In this document: piece by piece, positions 2,228-33,892 of the stretch
Numbering within the stretch: the first letter of the stretch is position 1
Layout of the letters: each line of letters starts with the position of its first letter
Assembly (NCBI GenBank): GCA_026985785.1
Contig: JALSPT010000136.1
Coordinates: 1 to 39,214 of the forward strand
Direction: 5' to 3'
Length of the DNA: 39,214 nt
Source: Anaerolineales bacterium
GTDB taxonomy: Bacteria > Chloroflexota > Anaerolineae > Anaerolineales > DRMV01
The notes under the pieces: generated by a model
Told to the model about the DNA's origin: nothing
The model's database searches: none
The model's input: the letters and a program-made list of their open reading frames with translations, nothing else
Translations under genes and position numbers: made by a program

Positions 2228-3688
2228 ATGAGAGCCAAAAAATTCCTTGCTGTGCTCGCCCTTCTGGCTTTTGTGTTGCCCGCCGTGCTGACGGCGTGCG
2301 CGAAGGCCACCCCCACGCCGACGGCGGCACCGGCTAAGACCGAAGCCCCGGCGGCTACCGAGGCGCCGGCTGCGACTGAGGCGCCTGCAGCCACCGAAGC
2401 GCCTACCGAGGCTGCTCCGGAAAGCCCTCTTGGTGTCAAACCCGAAGACCTGCAGGGCGTGACCATTACTTTCTGGCACGTTTGGAGCCGGGGCACTGGC
2501 GAGGAGCTCCAAAAACTGGTGGATGAGTTCAACGCCACCAACCAATGGGGCATCACCGTCAAAGCCATCAATCAGCAGGGCTACGGCCAGATGTTCGACA
2601 AAATGAACGCCGCCATCAACTCCGGTGATCTGCCCAACCTGGTCGTGGGCTACAACAACCAGATGCTGGCCTGGGACGACGCCGGTGGTGTGATTGCCGA
2701 CATGACGCCCTACGTCAACGACCCCGTCTATGGCCTTTCCAAGGAAGAACAAGCCGACTTCTACCCCGCGTTTTGGAACCAGGACGTCGTCAACGGCAAA
2801 CGCTATGGCTTCCCTGTGATGCGCTCCGCGCAGGTGATGTTCTACAACGTCACCTGGGCTAAGGAACTGGGCTTCGACAATCCCCCAAAGACCATCGACG
2901 AGTTCAAAGCACAGACCTGCGCGGCCGCTAAAGCCAACAACGAAGACGACGACCCCGACAACGACGGCACTGGCGGCTACATCATCAAACCCGGGGCTTC
3001 CGTCATCACCAACTGGATCTGGGCTTTTGGCGGCGACATCGTGGACGCCAGCGGCAAATACACTCTGGATACCCCACAGGCCCAGGAAGCCTTGACCTAC
3101 CTGAAAGACCTCTATGATAGCGGCTGCGCCTGGAGCGGCGTCAACAAATACCCCAATCCAGAATTTGCCACCCGCCAGGCACTCTTCACGACCAGCAGTA
3201 TCGCCGGCCTACCTTATCAGGCCAAAGCGATGAAGGCCAACAACAGCACCGACGAGTGGACGCTCATTCCCTTCCCCTCCAAGACCGGCAAGCCTGTAAT
3301 GGACGTCTACGGGCCTTCGTTTGCCATAGTAAAATCCACGCCCGAACAGCAACTGGCCTCCTGGCTGTTTATCAAATGGTTCACCTCGCCCGAGAATCAG
3401 GCCAAATGGGTGGAGGCCAGCGGCTACTTCCCTACCCGCAAAGCCACCTTCAAGTACCTGGCCGACTACATCAAAGCCCATCCGCAGTGGGCAGCAGTGC
3501 GTGAAATGGTAGAGAAAGGCTACGGCAAGTTCGAGCCGCGCGACGCTTCGTGGAACGCCGTTCGCAAGGCAATGGGCGATGCCTTTGCCCAGATTTTCCA
3601 GCCAGATTTCAGCAAAGACCAGATTCCGCAAGTGTTGCAAGACCTGCAAAAGCAGGCGGAAGAGGCCTACGCCGAGGCACACGAGTAA
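2228..3688 (+). CDS. ABC transporter substrate-binding lipoprotein (family 1, carbohydrate-type), orphan
   Basis: SD AAGGAGGA upstream. Lipoprotein signal ending LTAC. EAPAAT x3.5 low-complexity linker, then an extracellular solute-binding fold pattern (LVVGYNNQ, YGFPVMRS, W-rich). No permease or ATPase genes are adjacent. Confidence 0.85.
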   Translation: MRAKKFLAVLALLAFVLPAVLTACAKATPTPTAAPAKTEAPAATEAPAATEAPAATEAPTEAAPESPLGVKPEDLQGVTITFWHVWSRGTGEELQKLVDEFNATNQWGITVKAINQQGYGQMFDKMNAAINSGDLPNLVVGYNNQMLAWDDAGGVIADMTPYVNDPVYGLSKEEQADFYPAFWNQDVVNGKRYGFPVMRSAQVMFYNVTWAKELGFDNPPKTIDEFKAQTCAAAKANNEDDDPDNDGTGGYIIKPGASVITNWIWAFGGDIVDASGKYTLDTPQAQEALTYLKDLYDSGCAWSGVNKYPNPEFATRQALFTTSSIAGLPYQAKAMKANNSTDEWTLIPFPSKTGKPVMDVYGPSFAIVKSTPEQQLASWLFIKWFTSPENQAKWVEASGYFPTRKATFKYLADYIKAHPQWAAVREMVEKGYGKFEPRDASWNAVRKAMGDAFAQIFQPDFSKDQIPQVLQDLQKQAEEAYAEAHE

Positions 3689-3709
3689 ATCTTCGCCTGA
3701 CCCCTCATC

Positions 3710-3747
3710 AAAAAGCAGCCCCCGGTTTTCCGGGGGCTGTGCTTTTT
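3710..3747. terminator. Bidirectional intrinsic terminator between convergent SBP gene and uvrC
   Basis: AAAAA, then GCAGCCCCCGG, loop TTTT, then CCGGGGGCTGTGC, then TTTTT. An A-tract and a T-tract flank an 11-bp GC stem. Confidence 0.8.
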
Positions 3748-3756
3748 GCCGAGCGG

Positions 3757-5622
3757 TCATGCCGTCAACGCCTCTTTGATGACCTGCGCCAGCGCCTTGC
3801 TAATGCCCTTCACGGCGGCAAGCTCTTCCACGGAAGCCTGCCGGATGGCCGCCACCGAGCCGAAGCGCGCCAGCAGGGCGCGCTTGCGCTTTGGCCCCAC
3901 GCCGGGGATGGCATCCAGTGCCGAGGTCAACCCCTCGCGCACGCGGCGGCCACGGTTGGCGGTGATGGCAAAGCGGTGCGCCTCGTCGCGCACCCGCTGG
4001 AGCAGGAACAGCCCCGGATGGTTGCGCGGCAGGCGCAGCGGCTGCCGCTGGCCGGGGAGGTAAACTTCCTCCTCGCGCTTCGCCAGCCCGACGGCAAAAA
4101 TGCGCTCCCGCAGGCCGAAGCGGTCGAGCACCCGCAGCGCCCGCGCCAGTTGCCCCTTGCCGCCGTCGATGAGCAGCAGGTCGGGCAGGCGGGCGAAGGA
4201 AGGGTCGGGCGGCTTGCCGGGCTGCCCTTCGGCGGCCACTTTGCGGGCTGCCTCCCAGCGGCGGAAGCGGCGGGTGAGTACCTCTTCCATGCTGCCGAAG
4301 TCGTCGCCTGCCGCGGTGCGGATGTTGAAGCGCCGATAGTGCCCCTTGCGCGGCTGCCCCTGCTCGAACACCACCATGCTGCCCACCGCCGCGGTGCCGT
4401 GCAGGTGCGAGATGTCGTAGCCCTCGATGCGGTTGGGCGGGGCGCTCATCCCTAAGGCTTCCTGCAGCGCCGCCAGCGCCTCGGTGATTTGCCCGGCTTC
4501 GGCTTCCTTGCGGGCTTGCAGCGCGGCCAGGGTCTCGGCGGCGTTCTGGGCGGCCAGTTCCAGCAGCGCCTGCTGCTCGGCGTCGCGCGGCAGGCTGATT
4601 TCCACCGTGGCGTGGCGGCGGTCGTTCAGCCATTCCCGGATGAGTTGCGCCTCCTCCACCTCGTGGGGCAGCAGCACCCGCGGCGGCAGGTGCGCCGCCT
4701 GGCCGTAAAACTGCTTCAGGAAGGCCGCCAGCACCTGCGGGTCGGGGACGTCTTCGGTGTTTTCCAGCAAAAAATACTCCCGCCCGATGAGTTTGCCGTT
4801 GCGGATGAAGAACACCTCCACGCAGGCGTGGCGTTCGTCGCGTGCCAAGGCGAGCACATCCGAATCCAGCCCGCTTTGGGAAACCACCCGCTGGCGTTCC
4901 ACCAGTTGGTGGATGGCCTGAATCTGGTCGCGCAGGCGGGCGGCCTTTTCGAATTCCAGTTTCTCGGCGGCCTGGCGCATTTCGGCTTCCAGCCGCTGCA
5001 CCACCGGCTCGGTGCGCCCTTCGAGAAAATCGCACAGGTCGGCGATCATCTGGCGGTAGTCTTGCTGGGAAACCGCCCCCACACACGGCGCGGCGCACAG
5101 CCCCAAATCGGCGTACAGGCAGGCCCGCGGGTCGTGGCCGGTGATCGGGCGGTTGCAGGTCAAAAAGGGAAAGATCTTGCGCAACACATCCAGAGTTTGG
5201 TGCACCGCCCACATGCTGGTGTACGGACCGAAGTAGCGCGCCCCATCCTGCACCACCCGCCGGGTGACGGTCACCTTGGGGAAAGGGTCTTGCCAGTGGA
5301 CCTTGATGTAGGGATAGCGTTTGTCGTCTTTCAGGCGGACGTTGTAGCGCGGGCGGTGCTTTTTGATGAGGTTCATCTCCAAGATGAGCGCCTCGAGTTC
5401 GCTGCCCACGGTAATCCATTCGATATCGGCGATTTGCGCCACCAGTTTGCGGGTTTTGGGGTGCTTTTGGGCGCTTTTGTGGAAATAGGAACGCACCCGC
5501 CGCCGCAGGTTGACCGCCTTGCCGACGTAGATGACCTCCCCGGCGGCGTTTTTCATCAGGTAGCAGCCGGGCTTTTCGGGCAGGGTATCCAACGTGGGGC
5601 GGAGGTGGTCGGGGAGGGGCAT
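3757..5622 (-). CDS. uvrC: Excinuclease ABC subunit C
   Basis: N-terminal GIY-YIG (GCYLMKNAAGEVIYVGKAVNLRRRVRSYF), a UVR domain, and a C-terminal (HhH)2 (IPGVGPKRKRALLARFGS). No SD: CCCCCC precedes the ATG. Confidence 0.97.
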   Translation of the reverse strand: MPLPDHLRPTLDTLPEKPGCYLMKNAAGEVIYVGKAVNLRRRVRSYFHKSAQKHPKTRKLVAQIADIEWITVGSELEALILEMNLIKKHRPRYNVRLKDDKRYPYIKVHWQDPFPKVTVTRRVVQDGARYFGPYTSMWAVHQTLDVLRKIFPFLTCNRPITGHDPRACLYADLGLCAAPCVGAVSQQDYRQMIADLCDFLEGRTEPVVQRLEAEMRQAAEKLEFEKAARLRDQIQAIHQLVERQRVVSQSGLDSDVLALARDERHACVEVFFIRNGKLIGREYFLLENTEDVPDPQVLAAFLKQFYGQAAHLPPRVLLPHEVEEAQLIREWLNDRRHATVEISLPRDAEQQALLELAAQNAAETLAALQARKEAEAGQITEALAALQEALGMSAPPNRIEGYDISHLHGTAAVGSMVVFEQGQPRKGHYRRFNIRTAAGDDFGSMEEVLTRRFRRWEAARKVAAEGQPGKPPDPSFARLPDLLLIDGGKGQLARALRVLDRFGLRERIFAVGLAKREEEVYLPGQRQPLRLPRNHPGLFLLQRVRDEAHRFAITANRGRRVREGLTSALDAIPGVGPKRKRALLARFGSVAAIRQASVEELAAVKGISKALAQVIKEALTA

Positions 5623-5628
5623 GGGGGG

Positions 5629-5724
5629 AGTCGTTTAGTCGTTTAGTCGTTTAGTCGTTTGGTCGTTTAGTCGTTTAGTCGTTTGGTCGTTTGGTCGTTT
5701 GGTTGCCTGGTTGCGGGGTTGCCG
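5629..5724. repeat. 8-bp tandem array: 9 copies of RGTCGTTT plus 3 degenerate GGTTGCNN units
   Basis: Counted directly. Units start at 5629, 5637, ... 5693, then 5701, 5709, 5717. On the minus strand this reads (AAACGACY)n and ends 6 nt before the uvrC ATG. It fills almost the whole tsaC-uvrC spacer. Confidence 0.95.
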
Positions 5725-5731
5725 CCACTCC

Positions 5732-6364
5732 TCATTCGCCATTCGCCACACAGCGGGCAATATCCGCTGCGGCGATGGGCCCCGCGCGCAGGATGCGGGG
5801 CGAGGCGACGGTGCAATCCACCACGGTGGAGGGCTGGCCGCCGGGGGCGGGGCCGGCGTCAAGGATCACGGCCACAGCGTTCCCCAGTTGGGCGGCGGCC
5901 TCGGCGGCAGTGCGGGCGGGGGGCTGGCCGGAGCGGTTGGCCGAGGTCACAGCCAGGGGGCCGGTCAGACGCAGCAGCGCCAGCGCGAGGGGATGGGCGG
6001 GCATCCGCACACCCACGGTTGGGTAAGGGGAAAGGGCCGCGGGCAGATCGGGGTGTTTGGGCATCACGATGGTGAGCGCACCGGGCCAGAAACAGGCCGC
6101 CAGCCGATCCGCGCAAGGCGGCACTTCGGCGGCCACGGCAGCCAGTTGCGCGCGGTCACCCACCAGCAGGGGAATGGCCTTGCTTTCCGGGCGCGCTTTG
6201 GCGCGATAGAGGCGGGCGATGGCGTCCGCGCGGGGCAGCGCCGCCACGCCGTACACCGTGTCGGTCGGCATCACCACGAGCAGCCCGGCGCGTAGCGCCT
6301 CCGTGGCACGCACCAGCGCCCGCCGATCGGCAGCCGGGTAGATGAGGGGCGCTTTCTCCGGCAT
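5732..6364 (-). CDS. tsaC: L-threonylcarbamoyladenylate synthase, YrdC/TsaC type (Sua5/YciO/YrdC/YwlC domain only)
   Basis: 210 aa. Contains VMPTDTVYGVAA and AKARPESKAIPLLV, and TSANRSGQPP. Confidence 0.8.
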   Translation of the reverse strand: MPEKAPLIYPAADRRALVRATEALRAGLLVVMPTDTVYGVAALPRADAIARLYRAKARPESKAIPLLVGDRAQLAAVAAEVPPCADRLAACFWPGALTIVMPKHPDLPAALSPYPTVGVRMPAHPLALALLRLTGPLAVTSANRSGQPPARTAAEAAAQLGNAVAVILDAGPAPGGQPSTVVDCTVASPRILRAGPIAAADIARCVANGE

Positions 6365-11580: not shown

Positions 11581-12957
11581 TTCGACCTGGACGATGGCGC
11601 GCGAGAGGGCAGGAAAGGCATCCAACAGGGCGCGTTGCAAGGCGTCGGCCTGGGCGTGGGCGCGTGAGAGGGGCCAGTCGGCGGGGAGCGTACAGCGGAC
11701 GGCGGCGGTGAGGTGCCCTCCACTGCGCCGCAGTTCGACCGCCAGCACTTGGCCGTCGCGGCAATGCTGGGCTACAAAGGCCCGGATTGCTTCCTCCAGC
11801 GAAGTATCGCCCGCTTCGCTGGGAAGCACTTGCTCCGGCAGGGGTTCCAGATGCACGACGACCTCCTGCAAAGCGGGGATGTCGGCGCGAGCGCGGGCGA
11901 TGAATTGTTGGGCTGCGGCGTGGGCTTCGCCCAAGGTGGGCTGGCCGGGGAACTCAAGGTGCATTTCAGCGGTGTAGCCGCCGGTGGGCAGGGCGTGGAT
12001 GTGGATTTCGTGGATACCCAGCCCCAGCCCATCGGCCAAACGGCGCAGGCGGGTGGTCAGTTCAGCCCACGGCGAGAGGGGCTGGTCGGGGCGGGCAGGT
12101 TCCACATGCGCCATCGCTTCGACCACCCCCGGCACTTGTTCGCGAATCCGGGTTTCCACCTCGTCGGCCAGGGCGTGCGCCTGGGTTGTGCCCATCCCGG
12201 CAGGCACGCGAATGTGCAGATCGACAAAGGCAGCCCCGGGTTTCCCGCGCGAGCGGATGTGGTGAGCGTCGACCACGCCGGGGACGCTCAAAGCCACCCG
12301 CGCGACCTGCTCGGCGTCCACCACCGAAGCATCGGTGAGGTATTGGGCGGCCTGTTTGAGCACTTCCCAGGCGGCGTGGACGATGAGGGCTGCCACGCCC
12401 AACGCCGCCAGCGGGTCGAGCCAGGCGTAGCCCAACCGCACGCCGATCAGGGAAATCACCACCGAGAGCGTCACCCACAGGTCGCTGCGAATGTGGGCGG
12501 CATCGGCCAGCAGCAGTTCGGAATTCCAGCGCCGCCCCTGACGGGTTTCCCACTGCACGACGAGCAGCGCCACTACAAAAGCCACCCCCATCAAATAGAG
12601 CGCCAGCGGCTCGACACCCGTTGCTCCTTCTCGCCAGTGTACGATGGCCTGATGAGCAATTTCGCCTGCTGCCAGCAGCATCAACACCCCGATGAACAGC
12701 GCGCCCAACGTTTCGAACCGCTGGTAGCCGTAGGGATGGCTGGCATCGGCCTTGCGGGCGGCAAAGCGCAGCATGAGCAGGCTGAGGAGGTTAGAAGCCG
12801 CATCCACCAGCGAGTGAAAGCCATCGGCCACCACGGAGAGCGCCCCGGCGCTGAGGCCGACGGCCAGTTTGAGCAGGCTGATGCCGATGTTGAAGGCCAG
12901 CACGCCCCACAGGGTGCGCTGGACGGCGGCGTAACGGTTGCTCTGGGTGCGGCTCAT
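11572..12957 (-). CDS. Cation diffusion facilitator (CDF) metal efflux transporter with three tandem C-terminal cytoplasmic domains
   Basis: ATG at 12957 overlaps the PBP stop as ATGA. TM2 DGFHSLVDA and TM5 HIRSDL metal-site motifs. Three successive ZT_dimer-like segments end in HVEP, HLEP and QVEP. Confidence 0.85.
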   Translation of the reverse strand: MSRTQSNRYAAVQRTLWGVLAFNIGISLLKLAVGLSAGALSVVADGFHSLVDAASNLLSLLMLRFAARKADASHPYGYQRFETLGALFIGVLMLLAAGEIAHQAIVHWREGATGVEPLALYLMGVAFVVALLVVQWETRQGRRWNSELLLADAAHIRSDLWVTLSVVISLIGVRLGYAWLDPLAALGVAALIVHAAWEVLKQAAQYLTDASVVDAEQVARVALSVPGVVDAHHIRSRGKPGAAFVDLHIRVPAGMGTTQAHALADEVETRIREQVPGVVEAMAHVEPARPDQPLSPWAELTTRLRRLADGLGLGIHEIHIHALPTGGYTAEMHLEFPGQPTLGEAHAAAQQFIARARADIPALQEVVVHLEPLPEQVLPSEAGDTSLEEAIRAFVAQHCRDGQVLAVELRRSGGHLTAAVRCTLPADWPLSRAHAQADALQRALLDAFPALSRAIVQVEPD

Positions 12958-15900
12958 GGGGTGGGGGTGGGGGTGGGGGTGAGCGTGGGAGGCGCGGTGG
13001 GCGATGGGGTAGGCGTGAGGCTCGGCATGGGCGTGAGGGTGGCGGTAGGCGTCGCCGTGGCCGTGGATGTAGGCGTCGGTGTGGAAGTCGGGGTAGCCGT
13101 GGGCGTGGGCGTCGGTGTGGAAGTCGAGGTAGCCGTGGGCGTGGGCGTCGCTGTGGGGGTGGGCGTCGGCAGGCTCAGATGGACGCGAATCTGGCGGATG
13201 GCGTAGTTTAGGTCGCCCTGGGTGCTGTGCATGTACATGCGCAGGATGACATCGCCCGGCATATGCTCCCAATCCCACATGTCAGGAATGTTCCAGGTGG
13301 CCACTTTGTCGGCTTTGGGCACGGGCTGGTCGCTGAAATAAATGCGGTGCCAGTGCTTTTCGTCGGGCGTGCGGGCTTCGATGCGGAAATCCTTGAAATA
13401 CTTGGTGGCGTCGGCCTGGACGACCATGTCCACTTCGGGCTCCGTGATCGTGCTGCCGTCGTGGGGGAAGACGAAGGCCAGCAGAGGGCGAGGGTCGGAG
13501 GCGGTGCATTGACGGTCGGGGGTGAAAATGACCGGGTTTTTGAAGCCCATCTTGTCGGCCCAGGCGCGCCCGGCTTTGCTGTGGCGCAACCACTTGCGCG
13601 CCCAAGGGTCGCTGACGTTGAGCGTGAGCCATTCGGTGGCGAACAGCCCTTTGGGATTGCAGGCTTTGGACTGGCCAAGTTGCGTCCAGGTGTCGATATG
13701 GGCGGGCTTCCAGAGATCGTCGGAAGGCGGCAACGGCGGTTGGTCGTAAGCGAAGATCTCGGTGCGCTGTTTGGGGCACCATTGGGAGGGCAAAGTGCCG
13801 GAAACCGCGCAGATGGTGTATTCCACGATGCCCGGCGGGCGCACGAAGGGGGTGGGGTGGCTGTGGGTGAGGTAGTGTTCGGCGTATTGCATGAAGGACG
13901 ACCAGATGGGGGCCGCACCGGTCAGGCCGGTGCTGTTGATCATCGGGCTGTTGTCGGCGTTGCCCACCCACACGCCCACCGCGATGTCGGGGGTGTAGCC
14001 CATCGTCCAGTTGTCACGGAAATCGTTGGTGGTGCCGGTCTTGGCCGCCGCGGGGAAGGGCAGGTGCAACGGCGAGTTGAGGCCGAATTCCCAGGCGCGC
14101 GCCTGGTTGTCGGAAAGGATGGAAGTGATGAGGTACGCGTGCTCAGGCCGCACCACTTGCACCCCCGCGGGCGGGGTGTATTCGTACACCGTCTTGCCGC
14201 GGTAATCCACGATGCGGGTGATGGCCACCGGCGGGACGCGCTTGCCGCCGTTGGCCAACACGGCATAGGCCGCGGTGTGCTCCAGCAGGGTGACCTCGCC
14301 GCCGCCTAAGGTGAGCGAAAGGCCGTAGTCCTTGCGGGTCAGGGTGGTGATGCCCAGCCGTTCGGCCATGCCGACCAGCCCGTCTTTCTGTGGGGTTTTG
14401 GGGTCGTCGTAGATGCCGACGAATTGCAAAGCCTTGACGGCGGGGATGTTGAACGAATTGGCCAGCGCGGTGCGGACGGTGACCGGCCCGTGGAAGAGGT
14501 GGTCGTAGTTCACCGGTTTGTAGGGCGGGCGGGGGTCGTTGGGGTTGCCGGAGGGCGGGAATTCGCTCGGCACGTCCCAAATCAGGGTGGCGGGCGTCCA
14601 GCCTTTTTCGAAGGCCGCGAGGTAAGTGTAGGGCTTGATGGACGAACCGGGTTGCCGCGGTGCTATGGCCATGTTGACCTGCCCGTGGATGGCTTCGTCG
14701 TAGAAATCTGCCGAGCCCACCATCGCCAAGATCTCGCCCGTGGTGGGGCGGATGGCCACCAGCGCGCCGTCGGTGACATGCTTCGCCGCCAGCGCCTTCA
14801 CCTGTTGGCCGACGATTTCCTGCGCTTTGGTCTGCAAGGTGGGGTCGAGGGTGGTGTAAACCGTAAAGCCGGAGCGGTAGATGGTCTGCGGGTCGTAGCG
14901 CTTTTCCAGCAGGGAGCGGATGTAGTTCACCCAATGGGGAAAACGTATTGGCACGCGCGGCGGCGGGAACTTGTAGTTTTCCATCTCGTCCCACGCGTGC
15001 ACGATGTCGTCTTGCCCCACGCAGATGGGATGGATGCTGTTGCTCACGGTGATGCAGCCCTGCTCCTGGCTGGTCTGGTACATCAGCGCCAACACCTGCT
15101 TGTAGCGCCGCATGGCGGCGGCGCGGTTGGTGTAGGGGTCGTACACCGCGGGCGCCTGCGGCAGGCCGGCCAGAAAAGCGGCTTGGGGGAGAGTCAGCTT
15201 GTCGGCGGTGGTGTGGAAGTAAGTTTCCGCCGCGGCTTCGACACCGTAGGCCAGGTTGCCGTAATACACCTCGTTGAGATACAGTTCCAGGATTTCGTCT
15301 TTGGAATAGCGGCGGGTGATTTCCATCGCCAAGATGGCTTCCCGCAGTTTGCGGCTGTAGGTGCGTTGTGCCCGTTCCTGTGGGGAAAGCAGCAGCGCGC
15401 GAGCGAGTTGCTGGGTGATGGTCGAAGCGCCGGAGACCACCTCGCCGGTGGTGTAATTTTGCCAGAAGGCGCGTGCAATGGCCCAGAAATCGACGCCGGG
15501 GTGTTCGTAGAAGTGCTTGTCTTCGGTGGCCAAGGTGGCCGCGACCATGTAGGGCGAGATTTTGCTCAGCGGGACGTACGTGCGCCGCCCGGCGTGGGGG
15601 TCGAGGATTTCGTAGAGCACGTTGCCGTTGCGGTCGAGGATGCGAGTGGTTTCGAAATGAGCGGCGCGGTTCTTCAAGTCGTCCACGTTGGGCAGTGTGG
15701 CGGCGATGCGGTAGTATTTGTACACCCCAAAGCCAGCGAGGGCGCTGGCGACCAAGATCAGCAGGACAGCGATTACCAGGACAAAGCGCCACGCACAGCC
15801 GAGGGAACGGCGCCAGAAAGGCATTCCTGGCGGCGCGGGCGGGGGAGCGCTGTCGCGAGGCGGGGTGGGAGGGATTGGAGGGCGCGGCGTGGTGCCCGAG

Positions 15901-16403
15901 CGCTGCAGGGGGCGGCTGGTATGCCCGCGCGGCAGCGGTAGGCCGTATTCATCCAGCGGGATGAAAAACGACTCGTCCTCAGGTGTTGAAGGCGCGCTTG
16001 CTTCCGCCGTCGTCGGGGAAGAGGAAGGCGTCTCCTCAGCGGAAGGCTGCAGGGGCTGAGCGGCAGTCTGTTCCTCGTCGCCGAGGGAAAGCGCCTCAGG
16101 CGCGGTGGCCTCAACGGAAGGCAGGGGTAAGGACGGCGGCGAGGCTTCCGCCGGTTGCGTTGGCGCGCTGGGCGGGGCGCTCTCAGCCTCCTCGTCGGCT
16201 GCGAATGCCGTCTCTTCGGGAGGGGACGACGCTTGCGGCGCAGCAGGCGCGTCTTCTTCCGCGCTTGAGGCGCGCGTCTCATCCAACCACGAGGCAGGCG
16301 GCAATGCCTCGGGTGGCAAAGGCTGGCTTTCACCAGAGGGGAAAGCGTTGGCCTCGGGTTCCCCCTCGGCCTGGGGCTGACGCTCTTTGTCGGTCAAAGA
16401 CAT
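12954..16403 (-). CDS. Class A penicillin-binding protein (transglycosylase/transpeptidase) with acidic Pro-rich N-terminal tail and PT-rich C-terminal tail
   Basis: GT51 motifs EDKHFYEHPG, GASTITQQLAR, RKLREA. Transpeptidase motifs SSIK, SFN, KTGTT. About 215-aa disordered cytoplasmic N-terminus, one TM helix, and about 75 aa of (T/S/A)P repeats at the C-terminus. Confidence 0.9.
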   Translation of the reverse strand: MSLTDKERQPQAEGEPEANAFPSGESQPLPPEALPPASWLDETRASSAEEDAPAAPQASSPPEETAFAADEEAESAPPSAPTQPAEASPPSLPLPSVEATAPEALSLGDEEQTAAQPLQPSAEETPSSSPTTAEASAPSTPEDESFFIPLDEYGLPLPRGHTSRPLQRSGTTPRPPIPPTPPRDSAPPPAPPGMPFWRRSLGCAWRFVLVIAVLLILVASALAGFGVYKYYRIAATLPNVDDLKNRAAHFETTRILDRNGNVLYEILDPHAGRRTYVPLSKISPYMVAATLATEDKHFYEHPGVDFWAIARAFWQNYTTGEVVSGASTITQQLARALLLSPQERAQRTYSRKLREAILAMEITRRYSKDEILELYLNEVYYGNLAYGVEAAAETYFHTTADKLTLPQAAFLAGLPQAPAVYDPYTNRAAAMRRYKQVLALMYQTSQEQGCITVSNSIHPICVGQDDIVHAWDEMENYKFPPPRVPIRFPHWVNYIRSLLEKRYDPQTIYRSGFTVYTTLDPTLQTKAQEIVGQQVKALAAKHVTDGALVAIRPTTGEILAMVGSADFYDEAIHGQVNMAIAPRQPGSSIKPYTYLAAFEKGWTPATLIWDVPSEFPPSGNPNDPRPPYKPVNYDHLFHGPVTVRTALANSFNIPAVKALQFVGIYDDPKTPQKDGLVGMAERLGITTLTRKDYGLSLTLGGGEVTLLEHTAAYAVLANGGKRVPPVAITRIVDYRGKTVYEYTPPAGVQVVRPEHAYLITSILSDNQARAWEFGLNSPLHLPFPAAAKTGTTNDFRDNWTMGYTPDIAVGVWVGNADNSPMINSTGLTGAAPIWSSFMQYAEHYLTHSHPTPFVRPPGIVEYTICAVSGTLPSQWCPKQRTEIFAYDQPPLPPSDDLWKPAHIDTWTQLGQSKACNPKGLFATEWLTLNVSDPWARKWLRHSKAGRAWADKMGFKNPVIFTPDRQCTASDPRPLLAFVFPHDGSTITEPEVDMVVQADATKYFKDFRIEARTPDEKHWHRIYFSDQPVPKADKVATWNIPDMWDWEHMPGDVILRMYMHSTQGDLNYAIRQIRVHLSLPTPTPTATPTPTATSTSTPTPTPTATPTSTPTPTSTATATPTATLTPMPSLTPTPSPTAPPTLTPTPTPTP

Positions 16404-28866: not shown

Positions 28867-29952
28867 ATGGCTGACAAGAAAGTGCGTGTGGCCATCATTG
28901 GGGTGGGCAACTGCGCTTCGGCGTTGGTGCAAGGTGTTCACTTCTACCGTGAGGCCAAGGACGACGATATCGTGCCCGGTCTGATGCACGTCAACCTCGG
29001 CGGTTACCACATCAGCGACATTGAATTTACAGCCGCTTTCGATGTGGTGGATACCAAGGTGGGCAAGGACCTCTCCGAGGCCATTTTCGCTTATCCCAAC
29101 AACACCTACAAGTTTGCCGACGTGCCTCACATGGGGGTCAAGGTGTACCGGGGGATGACCCACGACGGTTTGGGCAAATATCTTTCGCAAGTGCTGACTA
29201 AGGCACCCGGCCCTACCGACGATATCGTCAAAATCCTCAAAGATACTGGCACCGACGTGGTCATCAATTTCCTGCCCGTCGGCTCGGAGATGGCCACCAA
29301 GTGGTACGTCGAGCAGATTCTGGAGGCGGGGGTGGCCTTTGTCAACGGCATTCCGGTCTTCATTGCCAGTTCGGAATACTGGGCCAAACGCTTCCGCGAT
29401 CGGGGTTTGCCCGTGATCGGCGACGATATCAAATCGCAGGTGGGCGCGACCATCCTGCATCGCACATTAACCACCCTATTCGTGGATCGCGGGGTGCGCC
29501 TCGACCGCACCTATCAGTTGAATTTTGGCGGCAACACCGACTTCCTCAACATGCTGGAGCGTGAGCGCCTGGAATCCAAGAAAATCTCCAAGACCGGCGC
29601 CGTGACCAGCACCTTGCCCTACCAGCTCCCGCCGGACAACATTCACGTCGGCCCCAGCGATTACGTCCCCTGGCTAACCGACCGCAAATGGGCTTACATC
29701 CGCATGGAAGGCACCACTTTCGGCGAAGTGCCGCTCAACGTGGAGGTCAAACTGGAGGTGTGGGATTCGCCAAATTCGGCAGGCGTGATGATCGATGCTG
29801 TTCGCTGCGCCAAACTGGCGCTCGACCGCGGCATGGCAGGCCCCATCATTGGCCCCTCGGCTTACTTCATGAAAACACCCCCCAAGCAGTTCCGCGACGA
29901 CGTTGCCCGCGAAATGACCGAAGCCTTCATCCGCGGCGAAGAGACGTCTTGA
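28867..29952 (+). CDS. ino1: Inositol-3-phosphate synthase (myo-inositol-1-phosphate synthase)
   Basis: SD AGGAGG upstream. [25 protein letters not shown]-binding N-terminus, as in bacterial/archaeal MIPS. About 361 aa. Confidence 0.9.
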
Positions 29953-30047
29953 CGACTCGTTTCCCCCGTGAACATCGACCCCCTGACGACTACATCCAGG
30001 GCTTTTCAATAATGGCCCAATTTACCGTATTTTGCCGCGCCGAGGTC

Positions 30048-30170
30048 GATCTCACCCATCCCCCACCCGCCTGACAGCGGCTTTCCCCCTTCCCTCTCTT
30101 AGATAAGAGAGGGAAGGGGGGGCCCGAAAAGCGCAAAATGCGCTTTTCGGGCGGGGGTTAGGAGAGATCT
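30048..30170. repeat. Nested-hairpin repeat element, copy B
   Basis: Outer arms GATCTCACCCATCCCCC and GGGGGTTAGGAGAGATC. A 16-bp polypyrimidine/polypurine hairpin (30085-30120). A 13-bp hairpin CCCGAAAAGCGCA-AAA-TGCGCTTTTCGGG. Same order and orientation as copy A. Confidence 0.8.
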
Positions 30171-30198
30171 TCGCCTCTGGAGCCATCAAGTGCAAGAC

Positions 30199-30356
30199 TT
30201 TGGAAAACCCCTGGACTACACCGCCAGGGGATTTTCCTTTGGTTGCTCACGCGTTTTCCCCTTAGGACGCCATGTTATCCGCCAGTTTTCCCCATCTATC
30301 CAGGCTTTTCCACAGGGGCGCGGGCGTTTTCCACAGATCCAGGCAGGTTTTCCACA
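30199..30356. promoter_or_regulatory. Phased cluster of DnaA-box-like 9-mers
   Basis: Perfect TTTTCCACA at 30306, 30327 and 30348, each followed by G, with unrelated spacers. Same-strand near-boxes: TTTTCCCCA 30286, TTATCCGCC 30275, TTTTCCCCT 30254, TTTTCCTTT 30232. Inverted TTTTCCAAA at 30199-30207. Box spacings are 22, 21, 11, 20, 21, 21 bp. Confidence 0.6.
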
Positions 30357-30359
30357 GGT

Positions 30360-30734
30360 TCAGAAGCACGCGCCGACCTGTACCGTGAGGGCCGTCACCA
30401 AGGCAGCCGCCATCAGCAGGCACAACAACCCCATGGCAAGCCCGCCCAGGCGTACCAGCCATAGCAGGCCCCGGTGATCATGCGGGTGGGCGGCCAGGCT
30501 TTCCAGCCACTCGCGGTACGAGCGGCGGGTGAACCAGTGATACAGCACGGCGGGTGGGCGGCGGGCAACATCATCCTCGCTCAACCCCCAGCGGCGGAAA
30601 TTGTCCAGCCGAATTTCGGCAAACGCCCGCAAATAGCGCGTCGGTTGGAACAAAAACACCCAGCCAAACCAGCCGAAGAAGACCACCGCCAACGCGGCCA
30701 GCAGATCCAGGACCCACGAAAAAAAGGTGCACAT
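30360..30734 (-). CDS. Small hypothetical membrane protein (2 predicted TM helices)
   Basis: ATG at 30734, 8 nt after the upstream stop. Hydrophobic N- and C-terminal segments. No recognisable family. Confidence 0.45.
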   Translation of the reverse strand: MCTFFSWVLDLLAALAVVFFGWFGWVFLFQPTRYLRAFAEIRLDNFRRWGLSEDDVARRPPAVLYHWFTRRSYREWLESLAAHPHDHRGLLWLVRLGGLAMGLLCLLMAAALVTALTVQVGACF

Positions 30735-30742
30735 AGCGACGC

Positions 30743-33010
30743 CTACCGCAGAGAGGCCTGATAGATCATCCGCCCCGCAGCCACGAAGAGCGTTTGGGTA
30801 TCCGGATCAACGGCAAAAGCAGAGATCTCGCCTTCCAGCAGGCGCTGCGGGCGATACTGGGAGACGAAGCGCAACTGGTAAGAGAAGTGATACACTGCCT
30901 GCCCCCGGACGTCGAGCAGGTAAAGCGAGGGGTCGGGTGGGGGAGCCACGGCGATTTGGGTGAAGCGGGTATTGGGAATCACGGCTTCTTGACCGCGGCC
31001 AGGGCGGGTGTCGTTGTATGGCAACACGTCGCAGGCTAACCCTCCCCCGGCCTGAGAGTCACAGCGGGTGACCTGACCATCTTCGTGGAGCAGGTAAAAG
31101 CCTCCGCGCGTGACGGTCAGCGCAATGGCATTTTCGATACCAGGGGGCGCGCCGGTGGTGAAAGCATTATAAGGCGAAGCGCCAAATTCCCCTTCGCCGT
31201 CCATATCCACAATTTCTACGGTTTTGTTGGGCGGATCCAAGACGTAAAGCGAGCCATCCTGATAATCGATGGCGCGGGGCTGCTTCCAGTTGGATGGGGT
31301 AGCAGGGGGGAGAGCAAAGGCGGTTTCCTCCCGATCGAGGCCGCAGAGAAGCGCATGCCCCGCATCGTCAATACCGACCACGCTGTAGGCATTGGGGTAA
31401 GGTTGGAGAGCAAGGAGTGCAATATCCACTAGCGGACGCATCCCGATAGAAGCAAAAGCCGTGGTCTGACACTGAAAGTCATCATCCCGCCGGTAATGCT
31501 CCCCATCGAGGCGAAAATGAAAGACGCGCTGGCCGCTGCTTTCCAGAGCGTAGAGGTCAGCCCCCTGGAAAAGCAAACGGCGGACGGTGGTGTCGGGCGG
31601 CAGGCGATCGGAAACCGGTACGAAATCCAACCGCTGCACGCCGTCCAAGCGATCGAGTTCCTTCTGAATGCGGCTGTGAAGTGCCGCCGACGCCTCGTTG
31701 CGGTAATAGGCTTCGGCAGCCCGGACATCGCGCAGGGCTTCGACCAAAGCGTTTCGGCGGGTGATGGGCTCCTGGATGGCTTCGGCCTGGCGGGCTTCGG
31801 TTTGGGCACGGGCCAGGTAAGCGTGGAACTGCTGCAGGCGGCCGCGGCGAATGAAGACCACCACTGCAATGGTCACCACAACCAGCGGCACGGCCACCGC
31901 CGTAAGCGCCATGAAGGAGCGTGGGAGGGCAAACACTTCTTCCACTGAGGTGGAAAGCCCGCGCCTGGCAGCAGCGGCCAGCGCCCCGATGGCTTTTTCG
32001 CCGCCCAGCCAGAGGGCTGCCAGCCCCCGCCGCGCCCCCTCGCCCAGGCTACGGAAGAAAGTCCCCACCTTGGCTTTCCTCGCTTTGGCGGCGACGGGCT
32101 TCCGCGGGGGCGGAGGCGGCGAAGGCGAAGCGGCTTCCGCTTGCGGGGGGGGGTGGGAGGGCGAGGTGTCCTTCGGCGGCAGCGAAGCGCCCTTTGGGGG
32201 CGGCGGCATAGCAGGGAGAGGCGTGGGTTTGGCCTTCGTGGGCGGTGGTGGCGGAGGGGCAGCAGGCGAATCAGCCGGTTCCGCCGCAGCAGGCGGAGCA
32301 GGCGAAGGCGTTTTGGCTGGCGCTTTCTCTTGCCCCAAGACCACCCGTTTGTTCTCGCCGGTGGTACGCGGTTGCACGATGATGGCTTCTGCCTCCCCGC
32401 GGTAGGCCATCAAGCGCCGCAACAAGGGAGCGATCAGGCGGCGCTCGTTGAGGTGCAGCATCTCGTTTGTCCAACCGGCAGGGAGGTAGGGCGTCAGCAG
32501 AAGCACGTCACCGGGCTGCACGGTGGCGCTGGCAAAATAAACCCGTGTACTGCGCCCCAGCCCCAAGCCGCGCCCGCTGAGGCTCGGCTCGTGGTAATGT
32601 TGGGTTTCCTCACCCATCACCACAGCATGCATCGGGCCAGAAAGCGCCATGTAGAGCGTATGCTCGCGCCACACGGCCAGAGCAAGCCAGCCGATGGCCT
32701 GTTTGCCCTGACCGGTGAATTTGCGGTTGCGGTTGAGGAAATACAGGTTGAGCGCCGAAGCGAGTTCTTTCAACGCCGCGGTTACCGACCCCCCTTGGGA
32801 AAAATAGCGCTCGGCCAACTTATCCACCAGCGCCCGCTGCTCCTTCTTTCCCAAAGGCGCGTTGCCTTCCTGATGAAGATAGACCAGCAAGACATCGCGA
32901 CGGCGCATTCTGTGGGGGCGGCGCGGTGGCGTGTAGACGGCTGCCGCGGGGATATCGCCGTAGCCCCCGTGGCCATCGTGTCGCAAAATGAAAAGATGAT
33001 AGTTCCACAT
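30743..33010 (-). CDS. Hypothetical membrane protein: degenerate PP2C-like N-domain, Pro-rich linker, TM helix, beta-propeller-like ectodomain
   Basis: 755-aa ORF with coding-like composition. N-terminus resembles the PP2C fold pattern (WLALAVWREHTLYMALSGP, VQPGDVLLLTPY) without metal-binding Asp motifs. P/A-rich segment, then TM FMALTAVAVPLVVVTIAVVVFI. Repeated LY.L....G.V..F strands follow. Confidence 0.6.
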   Translation of the reverse strand: MWNYHLFILRHDGHGGYGDIPAAAVYTPPRRPHRMRRRDVLLVYLHQEGNAPLGKKEQRALVDKLAERYFSQGGSVTAALKELASALNLYFLNRNRKFTGQGKQAIGWLALAVWREHTLYMALSGPMHAVVMGEETQHYHEPSLSGRGLGLGRSTRVYFASATVQPGDVLLLTPYLPAGWTNEMLHLNERRLIAPLLRRLMAYRGEAEAIIVQPRTTGENKRVVLGQEKAPAKTPSPAPPAAAEPADSPAAPPPPPPTKAKPTPLPAMPPPPKGASLPPKDTSPSHPPPQAEAASPSPPPPPRKPVAAKARKAKVGTFFRSLGEGARRGLAALWLGGEKAIGALAAAARRGLSTSVEEVFALPRSFMALTAVAVPLVVVTIAVVVFIRRGRLQQFHAYLARAQTEARQAEAIQEPITRRNALVEALRDVRAAEAYYRNEASAALHSRIQKELDRLDGVQRLDFVPVSDRLPPDTTVRRLLFQGADLYALESSGQRVFHFRLDGEHYRRDDDFQCQTTAFASIGMRPLVDIALLALQPYPNAYSVVGIDDAGHALLCGLDREETAFALPPATPSNWKQPRAIDYQDGSLYVLDPPNKTVEIVDMDGEGEFGASPYNAFTTGAPPGIENAIALTVTRGGFYLLHEDGQVTRCDSQAGGGLACDVLPYNDTRPGRGQEAVIPNTRFTQIAVAPPPDPSLYLLDVRGQAVYHFSYQLRFVSQYRPQRLLEGEISAFAVDPDTQTLFVAAGRMIYQASLR

Positions 33011-33025: not shown

Positions 33026-33805
33026 TCAGCGGCGGCGCATCTGACGGGCTGTGAAAAGCCATAGCCCAATCCCACCAAAGAAGAAAAGCGCCCCAACGAT
33101 GCCCAAGAGAGGCGATTTATGGGATTGAGGGGCAGGCTCCGTTGGCGGCGCGGCGCGCTGGGCGCCGAAGGTGACGTAGGTGGTGTCGCCGGGGCGCAGT
33201 TTGAGGGTCACGTTGGGTTCGGTCGTGGGATTGTAGCCTTGAGGAACGGCCATCGTCACAATGTATTCGCCTTCTTCCAGGTCTTCGAAGCATATGAAAT
33301 CTTTGCTCGTGGTCTTTCTGGTCAAGGAGGTTTTGCCCACGCGTGTGGTCACGCTGACCGCGCCGCCGCGCAGGGGGTGTTCGATGTCCTCTTCGTACAG
33401 ACCGTCGCCGTTGACGTCGTTGTAGAGCAACACGCATAGGGTGCCCACGCCGGGGGGAGGGGTGGGTGTGGGGGTGATGGTAGGCGGCGCGCCGGGGGCC
33501 AGCGTGGGGGTGGGTTGCTCGGAGACGCCGACGCCCAGGATGAGCACCTGACCGGGCTGCAACGGCTGATCGGGGCGCAGGTTGTTGAGCGCCCGCAACT
33601 CGTCCACCGAGATCCCGGCGATGGCCGCGATCCGCCAGAGGGTATCGCCGGGTTGCACTTTGTAGCGGATGACACCATCAGCTCCGGGCGTGGGGGTAGG
33701 GAAAGGGGTAAGGACCGGCTGCACGCGCGCCTCCACCCTTGACAACTGCCCGACCATCGTTGCCGCTGCAACCAGGAGCAAAAAGAGTGCCATCCGCTTG
33801 AGCAT
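33026..33805 (-). CDS. LysM domain protein with SdrD-B/Cna-like domain and C-terminal membrane anchor
   Basis: ATG at 33805 with a signal peptide. LysM (YKVQPGDTLWRIAAIAGISVDELRALNNL), a PT linker, NDVNGDGLYEEDIEHPL, and a C-terminal TM helix plus RRR. Confidence 0.8.
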   Translation of the reverse strand: MLKRMALFLLLVAAATMVGQLSRVEARVQPVLTPFPTPTPGADGVIRYKVQPGDTLWRIAAIAGISVDELRALNNLRPDQPLQPGQVLILGVGVSEQPTPTLAPGAPPTITPTPTPPPGVGTLCVLLYNDVNGDGLYEEDIEHPLRGGAVSVTTRVGKTSLTRKTTSKDFICFEDLEEGEYIVTMAVPQGYNPTTEPNVTLKLRPGDTTYVTFGAQRAAPPTEPAPQSHKSPLLGIVGALFFFGGIGLWLFTARQMRRR

Positions 33806-33892
33806 GGTCTCATTATACCCCGAACCCTTTCGGGCGTGCCGAGACGAAAAAGCCCCCGTCGTGTGCGGGGGCAAGATGATGCGGGGGCCGGC

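What the first reader, a model, noticed from the sequence alone, without database searches (positions are those of the whole stretch)
30199..30356. Helically phased array of DnaA-box-like sites in a convergent intergenic region: candidate oriC, datA or DARS-type locus
Three exact TTTTCCACA sites match the relaxed DnaA-box consensus TTWTNCACA. They start at 30306, 30327 and 30348, exactly 21 bp apart, and share an extended ...TTTTCCACAG core with unrelated spacers. Four same-strand sites with one or two mismatches continue the phasing upstream (increments 22, 21, 11, 20 bp). One inverted TTTTCCAAA site lies at 30199. A conserved core with variable spacers and two-turn phasing is the hallmark of a protein-binding iteron array, not a recent duplication. 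The region lies between convergent genes (ino1 and a small membrane protein gene), so it is not an obvious promoter. Local gene orientation converges on the site rather than diverging from it, and no clear AT-rich unwinding element is present (only a 32-nt patch of about 69% AT at 30003-30034). That weighs against oriC and toward a DnaA-titrating or DnaA-reactivating locus, or iterons for an unknown protein.
Basis: partly seen in the sequence, partly recalled or inferred. Interest (0 to 1): 0.7.

Follow-up and report, generated by a model that had tools for sequence, protein, structure and literature searches.

The report
Conserved DnaA-box cluster outside dnaA
Just after a cell-envelope operon in an uncultured Chloroflexi bacterium lies a row of binding sites for the replication initiator DnaA, kept at the same place in five related genomes; it most likely soaks up or regulates DnaA and is probably not the replication origin itself.

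Summary
TTTTCCACA occurs exactly three times in the 39 kb window, at 30306, 30327 and 30348, 21 bp apart (0.27 exact sites expected by chance). Weaker same-strand copies continue the phase.

The array is not a local accident. Five related Chloroflexi genomes keep it directly after the same LysM / 755-aa / 124-aa operon, whatever gene follows. It has the same polarity in all of them: 2-3 strong CTGTGGAAAAC sites, then weaker GGGGAAAAC sites. Spacings are 10-12, 19-22 or 32 bp. Between two close relatives the cores are invariant while the spacers mutate.

The same box, spacing and polarity occur immediately after dnaA in seven Anaerolineae-type loci, and beside dnaA or dnaN in cyanobacteria and an acidobacterium. 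DnaA is therefore the most economical binder.

I found no dnaA, dnaN, DnaA-trios or conserved AT-rich unwinding element at this locus, and transcription converges on it. My best reading is a non-origin DnaA-box cluster, like the B. subtilis DBCs or E. coli datA. This is a new member of a known kind, in a phylum where replication control is unstudied. oriC is unlikely but not excluded, and binding is untested.

The parts
30348..30356 (+). DnaA box 1, exact TTTTCCACA (CTGTGGAAAAC on the operon-sense strand). It ends 3 bp from the stop codon of the 124-aa gene.
30327..30335 (+). DnaA box 2, exact TTTTCCACA, 21 bp from box 1.
30306..30314 (+). DnaA box 3, exact TTTTCCACA, 21 bp from box 2.
30286..30294 (+). 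Weaker box TTTTCCCCA (1 mismatch), 20 bp from box 3. This GGGGAAAAC variant recurs in all orthologous arrays and in dnaA-linked arrays.
30275..30283 (+). Weak box TTATCCGCC, 11 bp out from the previous site (half-period position).
30254..30262 (+). Weak box TTTTCCCCT (2 mismatches), in phase.
30232..30240 (+). Very weak box TTTTCCTTT (3 mismatches). It is also one arm of the terminal hairpin.
30199..30207 (-). Inverted site TTTTCCAAA (1 mismatch). It is also the other arm of the terminal hairpin.
30202..30237 (.). Near-palindrome or hairpin closing the distal end of the array (GGAAAACCCCTGG ... CCAGGGGATTTTCC). Similar GGGGAAAA(T)TCCCC ends occur in L001, L006 and L128.
30360..30734 (-). 124-aa small membrane protein gene, last gene of the operon. 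The array begins right after its stop codon. The gene is absent in relative L127, where the array follows the 757-aa gene instead.
30743..33010 (-). 755-aa protein with no Pfam or NCBIfam match. The predicted fold is a PP2C-like N-domain, a proline-rich linker, helices and a C-terminal beta-propeller. This is the operon gene used to find orthologous loci.
33026..33874 (-). LysM/SdrD_B-domain protein gene, first gene of the conserved operon.

Best explanation
The array is a cluster of binding sites for the replication initiator DnaA, located away from dnaA. It lies in the transcribed tail of the LysM / 755-aa / 124-aa operon.

Proposed mechanism (inferred, not shown):
1. DnaA domain IV binds the two or three consensus boxes next to the operon end.
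2. Bound DnaA then recruits further DnaA, probably the ATP form, onto the weaker co-oriented boxes. These lie one or two helical turns apart, on one face of the DNA.
3. The resulting oligomer withdraws or inactivates initiator, and so damps initiation at the true origin. This is how the B. subtilis DnaA-box clusters and E. coli datA act.

Shown here: the sites, their phasing, their conservation, and their identity with dnaA-linked boxes in related bacteria. Inferred: DnaA binding, the cooperative filling of weak sites, and the effect on initiation.
For: 1. **Non-random array.** The three exact boxes are the only ones in 39 kb, against 0.27 expected.
2. **Conserved position.** The array follows the same operon in five other genomes: L001, L002/L003, L005/L006, L127 and L128. 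The 755-aa orthologues are 47-64% identical. The downstream neighbour differs: ino1, a DUF4282 gene or pheT. In L127 the 124-aa gene is lost and the array still follows the 757-aa gene.
3. **Conserved motif.** 44 sites with an exact GGAAAA core give the consensus C-T-G-[T/G]-GGAAAA-C, which is G-TTTTCC-[A/C]-CA-G, a DnaA box with position 7 relaxed.
4. **Helical phasing.** Spacings cluster at 10-12, 19-22 and 32 bp. Rayleigh R = 0.90 at a period of 10-10.5, against 0.35 at period 3. This fits one face of the DNA and not codons.
5. **Footprint.** Between L001 and L006 every substitution falls outside the cores, and the first five cores are invariant.
6. **Match to dnaA-linked arrays.** TGTGGA[A/T]AA x3 at 20-22 bp, with the same polarity relative to the upstream gene, starts just after the dnaA stop in L045, L132, L133, L136, L138, L140 and L141.
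7. **Enrichment near replication genes.** In a scan of 185,579 species genomes, about 30 hits were non-tandem GTGGAAAAC loci. Six of these adjoin dnaA or dnaN. None of the 90 plain tandem-repeat hits does.
8. **Known box.** TTTTCCACA is the DnaA box bound by cyanobacterial DnaA (PMC4674748).
9. **Not origin-like.** The window has no dnaA or dnaN, and I found no box-plus-trio module or conserved AT-rich stretch. In L127 only 86 bp, mostly a terminator hairpin, separate the array from ino1.
10. **Precedent.** Non-origin DnaA-box clusters that restrain initiation are known (PMC3245932).
Against: - No binding data exist for any Chloroflexi DnaA.
- I could not obtain the dnaA locus of the same genome. 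It is therefore not shown that this lineage also has a dnaA-linked array or an origin elsewhere.
- Most distal sites lack the CACA half of the box, which is important in E. coli DnaA boxes (from memory of the literature). They would be weak sites at best.
- The two outermost sites double as hairpin arms.
- High-GC dnaA-linked arrays (L045, L132, L133) also lack trios and AT-rich stretches, so their absence here argues only weakly against an origin.
- The array is absent from other branches of the operon family: L213 (48% identity), L129 and L131.
Confidence: 0.5

Rival explanations
1. The array is the chromosomal replication origin of this lineage, or one half of a bipartite origin, relocated away from dnaA.
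For: - The box type, the 21-bp co-oriented triple and a following inverted box mirror the box module of dnaA-linked origins in related bacteria.
- L127 carries 12-14 boxes, more than any dnaA-linked array I saw.
- An Anaerolineae locus away from dnaA (L060) combines such a triple with CTACTAC trios and an AT-rich stretch, so origins away from dnaA seem to exist in the class.
- Cumulative GC skew has a local minimum near 31 kb.
Against: - No box-plus-trio module and no conserved AT-rich element occur in any of the six orthologous loci.
- In L127 the array is boxed in between a stop codon and a terminator next to ino1.
- Genes converge on the site in the window, L127 and L128, rather than diverging from it.
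- The GC-skew minimum merely follows gene strand, because coding strands are C-rich throughout the window.
- The window has no dnaA, dnaN or other origin-linked genes.
Confidence: 0.12
2. DnaA binds here mainly as a local transcription factor or roadblock. It would end or tune read-through of the envelope operon, block convergent ino1 transcription, or control a downstream promoter.
For: - The array starts 3-40 bp after a stop codon, always with the same polarity relative to the upstream gene. The dnaA-linked arrays show the same arrangement.
- In L127 and L128 the strong bidirectional terminator lies beyond the array, so the array is probably transcribed.
- In L001 and L006 the array sits just upstream of an extended -10 promoter (TGTGCTACAAT) for a DUF4282 gene. 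In L045, L132 and L133 it sits upstream of TGTGGTATAAT.
- B. subtilis DnaA-box clusters also regulate neighbouring genes.
Against: - No downstream same-strand gene or promoter-like site exists in the window.
- The neighbour differs among genomes while the array persists.
- Six to fourteen sites is excessive for a simple operator.
- This rival is not exclusive of the sink model.
Confidence: 0.15
3. The sites bind a different, unidentified DNA-binding protein that recognises GTTTTCC, for example a lineage-specific nucleoid or regulatory protein. The DnaA-box resemblance would be partial.
For: - The invariant part across all 44 sites is GGAAAA(C).
- Only the proximal two to four sites per array carry the full TGTG half.
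- Two further Anaerolineae arrays, L060 and L077, lie next to unrelated genes.
Against: - The T and G at box positions 9 and 8 are still preferred in the weak sites (26 and 32 of 44).
- The GGGGA[A/T]AAC variant also occurs inside dnaA-linked arrays.
- Identical arrays adjoin dnaA or dnaN in three phyla.
- No candidate binder is encoded nearby.
Confidence: 0.13
4. The repeats act at the RNA level. They would form a 3'-UTR or small RNA with many GGA motifs that sponges an RNA-binding protein, in the manner of CsrB/RsmZ.
For: - The operon-sense strand carries GGA-containing repeats.
- The array probably lies within the operon's 3' UTR.
Against: - The spacing follows the DNA helical repeat.
- Inverted copies occur.
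- The same arrays lie beside dnaA or dnaN in other phyla.
- No Rfam family matches at the gathering or E-value threshold.
- The GGA motifs are not placed in conserved hairpin loops.
Confidence: 0.04

Closest known systems
Bacillus subtilis DnaA-box clusters (DBCs) outside oriC (Okumura et al. 2012, PMC3245932)
   Same: Both are intergenic clusters of several DnaA boxes away from the unwinding region. In B. subtilis these are stably bound by DnaA, restrain initiation, and some also regulate neighbouring genes.
   Different: - Binding and phenotype are untested here.
- The boxes here are almost all co-oriented and strictly phased at 10.5 or 21 bp.
- The array sits after a stop codon, not in a promoter region.
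- Distance to the origin is unknown, whereas most B. subtilis clusters are close to oriC.
Escherichia coli datA
   Same: Both are non-origin clusters of high-affinity DnaA boxes proposed to lower the pool of active initiator (as summarised).
   Different: - From memory of the literature, datA needs an IHF site and promotes hydrolysis of DnaA-bound ATP. Neither can be assessed here.
- There is no sequence relationship.
- This array has more sites, and they are phased.
Escherichia coli DARS1/DARS2
   Same: Both are small clusters of about three DnaA boxes outside oriC that act on DnaA.
   Different: - From memory of the literature, the DARS core depends on oppositely oriented adjacent boxes. DARS2 also needs IHF and Fis sites, and it reactivates DnaA.
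- The strong boxes here are all co-oriented.
- An inverted weak site next to the first strong box exists only in L001, L002 and L006.
Box module of dnaA-linked origins in Anaerolineae-type bacteria, and cyanobacterial oriC (TTTTCCACA boxes; PMC4674748)
   Same: The box sequence, the co-oriented triple at 20-22 bp and the position directly after the upstream gene's stop codon are the same.
   Different: - Those loci adjoin dnaA or dnaN.
- In L140, L141 and L144 they are completed by an inverted box followed by CTA/TAC trios and an AT-rich stretch. None of this is present here.
Plasmid iterons (Rep-binding, about 22-bp period)
   Same: Both are direct repeats two helical turns apart with a conserved core.
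   Different: - Only 9-11 bp are conserved here, not 17-22 bp.
- The window has no rep, par or mobility genes.
- The locus has a chromosomal housekeeping context and conserved synteny.

Membership tests
DnaA-box cluster (generic) | Several matches to the DnaA-box consensus TTWTNCACA within about 200 bp, more than chance gives. | tested here: met
   The region holds three exact TTTTCCACA sites and one site with 1 mismatch, plus weaker sites, within 160 bp. Only 0.27 exact sites are expected per window.
DnaA-box cluster (generic) | The box matches the boxes used next to dnaA or at oriC in the same lineage. | tested here: inconclusive
   This is met for related Anaerolineae-type dnaA loci (L045, L132, L133, L136, L138, L140, L141). 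The dnaA locus of the window's own genome could not be retrieved.
DnaA-box cluster (generic) | The sites are under selection: conserved in orthologous positions while spacers drift. | tested here: met
   Six genomes keep the array at the operon end. Between L001 and L006 the substitutions fall only outside the cores.
DnaA-box cluster (generic) | DnaA occupies the sites in vivo or in vitro. | not testable with these tools
   This needs EMSA, DAP-seq or ChIP-seq.
oriC | An AT-rich DNA unwinding element lies next to the boxes. | tested here: not met
   The lowest 40-bp GC in the six orthologous intergenic regions is 0.35-0.53, and the low-GC stretch is not at a conserved position. L140 has 0.23. 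The test is weak, because L045, L132 and L133 also lack such an element.
oriC | A DnaA box is followed by DnaA-trios (basal unwinding system). | tested here: not met
   None was found in the window or in L001, L002, L006, L127 or L128. The same scan finds them in L140, L141 and L144.
oriC | The locus adjoins dnaA, dnaN or other origin-linked genes. | tested here: not met
   Pfam scans of all large ORFs and a tblastn search with DnaA gave no match in the window.
oriC | GC-skew switch, diverging gene orientation and a marker-frequency peak. | tested here: inconclusive
   Skew follows gene strand within the 39-kb contig, and genes converge on the site. A whole-replicon skew and coverage data are not available.
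datA | An IHF-binding site lies between essential boxes, and the locus stimulates hydrolysis of DnaA-bound ATP. | not testable with these tools
   No IHF consensus is known for Chloroflexi, and the activity is biochemical.
DARS | A core of adjacent, oppositely oriented DnaA boxes (from memory of the literature). | tested here: not met
   The strong boxes in the window are all co-oriented. The only inverted site is 107 bp from the nearest exact box and forms a hairpin arm.
Plasmid iterons | 17-22-bp repeats next to a rep gene. | tested here: not met
   The conserved core is 9-11 bp, and the window holds no rep or par gene.
Csr/Rsm-type sponge RNA | GGA motifs in hairpin loops of a structured small RNA, with a match to a known family. 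| tested here: not met
   No Rfam match was found, and the spacing tracks the DNA helix.

The most novel reading that the evidence does not exclude
In this reading, 3'-end DnaA-box arrays form a transcription-coupled control device.

The array always begins just after a stop codon, with the same polarity relative to the upstream gene. This holds both after dnaA itself and after the envelope operon, and the array appears to lie inside the transcript. RNA polymerase reading out of the gene would periodically strip a DnaA oligomer from the array, or be blocked by it. That would link the free DnaA pool, and so initiation, to expression of dnaA and of a PP2C-like/beta-propeller envelope-sensing operon.
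Probability: 0.1. Interest if true: 0.7.

Novelty: new member of a known kind. Interest (0 to 1): 0.4.

Why it matters
Replication control is essentially unstudied in Chloroflexi, a large phylum that is mostly uncultured. A DnaA-box cluster kept at one chromosomal position across genomes whose orthologues are only about 50-60% identical gives a concrete candidate regulator that is cheap to test: synthesise the DnaA gene and a 200-bp fragment.

The work also defines the lineage's box (TTTTCC[A/C]CA) and a recurring module of three co-oriented boxes 21 bp apart. That module could improve origin prediction in metagenome-assembled genomes.

The strict one-face phasing, with strong sites leading into weak ones, is a natural template for studying directional DnaA oligomer growth.

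Tried and rejected
- **Exact look-ups.** Exact-sequence look-ups of the window's own proteins found nothing. Relatives were reached through homologues instead.
- **Genome scan limit.** It never reached the relatives' genomes and cannot be used to count arrays per genome.
- **Same-genome dnaA locus.** I tried to find the dnaA locus of the genome that carries an orthologous array.
- **Closest relative.** The contig of the closest relative (P0002, 77% identity) ends before the array.
- **GC skew.** It tracks gene strand and is uninformative at this scale.
- **Coding repeat.** A heptad FPQ repeat in a + strand ORF is rejected, because spacings of 10, 11, 20, 22 and 32 bp are not multiples of three.
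- **CRISPR, tandem duplication, dispersed repeat.** These are rejected. Tandem Repeats Finder reports nothing there, the spacers are unrelated, and no other copy occurs in the window.
- **Double hairpin at 30076-30175.** It is not part of the array. Its first hairpin recurs in L002/L003 in the opposite orientation relative to the operon.
- **Neighbouring protein.** Sequence searches of the 755-aa protein (Pfam, NCBIfam, PDB) gave nothing useful. The fold search shows only a PP2C-like domain and a beta-propeller, with no link to replication.

Full report
**1. Observation**

The + strand carries TTTTCCACA at 30306, 30327 and 30348, exactly 21 bp apart. Each lies within [G/C]TTTTCCACAG and the 11-bp spacers are unrelated.
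- These are the only exact copies on either strand of the 39,214-bp window.
- 300 dinucleotide-preserving shuffles give 0.27 exact sites on average. A same-strand triple at fixed spacing has an expectation near 3e-12.
- Weaker same-strand copies lie at 30286 (1 mismatch), 30275, 30254 and 30232 (2-3 mismatches). The increments are 20, 11, 21 and 22 bp.
- An inverted TTTTCCAAA lies at 30199.
- Tandem Repeats Finder reports nothing here, so this is not a simple tandem duplication.
- The two outermost sites (30232 and 30199) are the arms of a stable hairpin at 30202-30237 (-24.7 kcal/mol, z = -3.35). Their status as boxes is doubtful.

**2. Context**

The window is a complete contig of an uncultured Chloroflexi bacterium. 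The 755-aa protein is a 100% match to a protein on a 39,214-bp contig, and its homologues are labelled Chloroflexi or Anaerolineales.
- To the left, ino1 ends at 29952 on the + strand.
- To the right, on the - strand, lies an operon: a LysM protein (33026-33874), a 755-aa protein (30743-33010) and a 124-aa membrane protein (30360-30734).
- The 755-aa protein has no Pfam, NCBIfam or PDB sequence match. A confident model (pLDDT 86) shows a PP2C-like N-domain, a proline-rich linker, long helices and a C-terminal beta-propeller.
- The rest of the window is ordinary chromosomal housekeeping: uvrC, glmU-like, a PBP1-type enzyme, a class II aminoacyl-tRNA synthetase, rseP-like and histidine kinases.
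- There is no dnaA, dnaN, rep or par gene.
- There are no tRNAs and no Rfam matches at the gathering threshold. A sensitive scan of 29900-30420 gives only hairpin noise.

**3. The array travels with the operon**

Homologues of the 755-aa protein led to five other genomes in which the operon is followed by the same array on the operon-sense strand:

| Locus | Identity of 755-aa orthologue | Source |
|---|---|---|
| L001 | 64% | ENA sample ERZ27262694 |
| L002/L003 | 62% | JGI sample 3300026518 (L002); ENA sample ERZ27262636 (L003) |
| L005/L006 | 56% | GCA_011322445.1 (L006) |
| L127 | 53% | GCA_027026295.1 |
| L128 | 47% | GCA_054042965.1 |

- The downstream neighbour differs. It is a convergent ino1 plus a GAF histidine kinase in the window, L127 and L128. 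It is a same-strand DUF4282 gene in L001 and L006. It is 800 bp of non-coding DNA followed by pheT in L002.
- In L127 the 124-aa gene is missing and 12-14 sites follow the 757-aa stop codon directly. A 52-aa gene called there lies wholly inside the array.
- More distant or differently arranged homologues lack the array: L213 (48%), L129 (40%) and L131 (28%).
- In each locus the array is the only dense cluster of GGAAAA/TTTTCC.

**4. Anatomy**

44 sites with an exact GGAAAA core in the six arrays give the consensus C-T-G-[T/G]-G-G-A-A-A-A-C. This is G-TTTTCC-[A/C]-C-A-G.
- Every array starts with two to four full boxes (TGTGGAAAAC) next to the operon end. It continues with GGGGAAAAC-type sites, that is TTTTCCCCA, one mismatch at box position 7.
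- Proximal spacings are 19-22 bp. Distal spacings are often 10-12 bp, and 32 bp occurs where one site is skipped.
- All 41 neighbour distances fit multiples of about 10.5 bp. Rayleigh R = 0.90 for periods of 10-10.5, against 0.35 for period 3 and 0.29 for period 7.
- The sites therefore share one face of the double helix. A coding or heptad repeat is excluded.
- Between the fairly close pair L001 and L006, every substitution in the first 120 columns falls outside the cores, and the first five cores are invariant.
- This is the signature of selection on short protein-binding sites with free spacers.

**5. Which protein binds**

I scanned 185,579 species genomes for three GGAAAAC heptamers 20-22 bp apart.
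- About 90 hits are ordinary tandem repeats.
- About 30 hits form a separate class of (C)TGTGGAAAAC sites with unrelated spacers. They come from cyanobacteria, Anaerolineae, an acidobacterium and clostridia.
- Six of these 30 adjoin dnaA (L045 Anaerolineales, L031, L078) or dnaN (L023, L065, L080, and again L078). None of the 90 tandem-repeat loci does.

A metagenome scan with the L045 DnaA gave 80 dnaA loci.
- In the loci closest to L045 (L132, L133, L136, L138, L140, L141, plus L045 itself), the DNA right after the dnaA stop holds three co-oriented TGTGGA[A/T]AA boxes at 20-22 bp.
- These sometimes include a GGGGATAAC variant, and the polarity relative to the upstream gene is the same as here.
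- DnaA proteins of this group are annotated Anaerolineae, Caldilineales or Chloroflexota.

TTTTCCACA is the established cyanobacterial DnaA box and is bound by DnaA domain IV in vitro (PMC4674748). DnaA is therefore by far the most economical candidate. Binding remains an inference.

**6. Origin or not**

In L140, L141 and L144 the dnaA-linked triple is completed by three further elements: an inverted box 100-300 bp away, CTA/TAC trios immediately after it, and an AT-rich stretch (40-bp GC down to 0.23). This is the basal unwinding arrangement.
- The same scans find nothing of the kind in the window or in the five orthologous loci.
- The lowest 40-bp GC there is 0.35-0.53, and the low-GC stretch is not at a conserved position.
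- The window's 69%-AT patch at 30003-30034 lies beyond an inserted double hairpin and has no counterpart in L127 or L128. In those loci a bidirectional terminator fills the short gap to ino1.
- Genes converge on the site in three of the six genomes.
- The local minimum of cumulative GC skew near 31 kb only reflects gene strand, because coding strands are C-rich throughout the window.

These points argue against oriC but do not close the case.
- The high-GC dnaA-linked arrays (L045, L132, L133) also lack trios and AT-rich stretches.
- One Anaerolineae locus away from dnaA (L060) looks like a genuine origin.
- I could not retrieve the dnaA locus of a genome that carries the operon-linked array.

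**7. Most likely mechanism**

The array is most likely a non-origin DnaA-box cluster. Strong boxes at the operon end would anchor DnaA. The weaker co-oriented sites, one or two turns away, would be filled cooperatively. The resulting oligomer would withdraw or inactivate initiator.

This resembles the six B. subtilis DnaA-box clusters, whose deletion causes early initiation, and E. coli datA (PMC3245932). I put 0.5 on this reading, and about 0.75 on the narrower claim that DnaA binds here.

The array seems to lie inside the operon's transcript, and in some relatives it sits upstream of a promoter. A local transcriptional role is therefore a serious rival and is not exclusive of the sink model (0.15). 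The remaining rivals are oriC (0.12), another protein that recognises GTTTTCC (0.13) and an RNA-level function (0.04).

**8. Comparison and novelty**

The locus works like a DBC/datA-type element. It cannot be filed as datA or DARS.
- The datA-defining IHF site and hydrolysis activity are untestable here.
- The DARS-type opposed boxes are not present among the strong sites.
- It differs from the known examples in its strict one-face phasing, its almost uniform polarity, its position after a stop codon, and its retention across genomes whose orthologues are only about 50-60% identical.

This makes it a new member of a known kind, in a phylum without any experimental work on initiation control. 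It is a useful, testable candidate but not a surprise, so I score interest at 0.4.

Noticed in passing
window 5629-5700: Nine tandem copies of the 8-bp unit AGTCGTTT (95% matches) fill the gap between the stop of a Sua5/TsaC-family gene (5732-6364, - strand) and the start codon of uvrC (3757-5622, - strand). They are followed by 3 copies of TGGTTGCC. Function unknown.
   Followed up: partly
window 30076-30175: Two adjacent near-perfect hairpins (CCCCCTTCCCTCTCTTAGATAAGAGAGGGAAGGGGG and CCCGAAAAGCGCAAAATGCGCTTTTCGGG) lie between ino1 and the box array. The first hairpin and the flank GGGGGT(T)AGG(G)AGAGAT recur in L002 3677-3760 and in L003, in the opposite orientation relative to the operon and with a different second hairpin. 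This looks like a small dispersed or mobile repeat. No Rfam match.
   Followed up: partly
window 30743-33010 (- strand): The 755-aa protein has no Pfam, NCBIfam or PDB sequence match. Its model (pLDDT 86) shows a PP2C-like N-domain (resembling PppA, 6jkv), a proline-rich linker, long helices and a C-terminal NHL/WD40-like beta-propeller. It always follows a LysM/SdrD_B protein gene. It is probably an envelope-signalling protein family confined to Chloroflexi.
   Followed up: partly
L127 2727-2885: A 52-aa gene called in the public record lies entirely inside the DnaA-box array. It is probably a spurious gene call.
   Followed up: no
L060 3540-3960: In an Anaerolineae MAG, the DNA after an archaeal-type SAM synthetase gene holds four elements: a palindromic box pair (GGTTTTCCACAGCTGTGGAAGC), a co-oriented triple (3676-3726), an inverted GGTTTTCCCC, and CTACTACAACGGCTACTTATTAAG. 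This is a possible replication origin away from dnaA.
   Followed up: partly
L012, L021, L028, L043, L059, L068, L123, L124 (Microcoleus); L046, L056, L126 (Leptolyngbya-type): In each of the two cyanobacterial groups the triple TGTGGAAAAC arrays have very similar flanking sequence (ATTGTGGAAAAC...TTCTGTGGAAAACCCCCC...CCTGTGGAAAACTGC in Microcoleus). This suggests one conserved site per group. No dnaA or dnaN was detected within the fetched 8 kb at any of these loci. These may be origins or conserved secondary clusters.
   Followed up: partly
L140 4264-4320, L141 4708-4740, L144 2712-2740: These are clear basal-unwinding modules (a DnaA box directly followed by CTA/TAC trios and an AT-rich stretch) downstream of dnaA. 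They lie 100-300 bp beyond a co-oriented box triple. This is a recurrent two-part origin layout in these Chloroflexi-like bacteria.
   Followed up: partly
window, whole: GC skew follows gene strand everywhere, because coding strands are richer in C than in G. Cumulative skew minima at about 4 kb and about 31 kb simply mark points where genes converge.
   Followed up: partly
window 13012-13168: Overlapping 12-, 18-, 24- and 36-bp tandem repeats (GGCGTGGGCGTCG-type) lie inside the 3' part of the PBP1-type gene (12954-16403, - strand). They presumably encode a repetitive C-terminal tail.
   Followed up: no
L002 3467-3510 and 3805-3850: A direct repeat of about 45 bp (CTCATCCGTGAAATCGGTGGATGTTTTTCTGCGAAATCTG) flanks the hairpin element in the long non-coding stretch between the array and pheT. 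This is consistent with an insertion.
   Followed up: no
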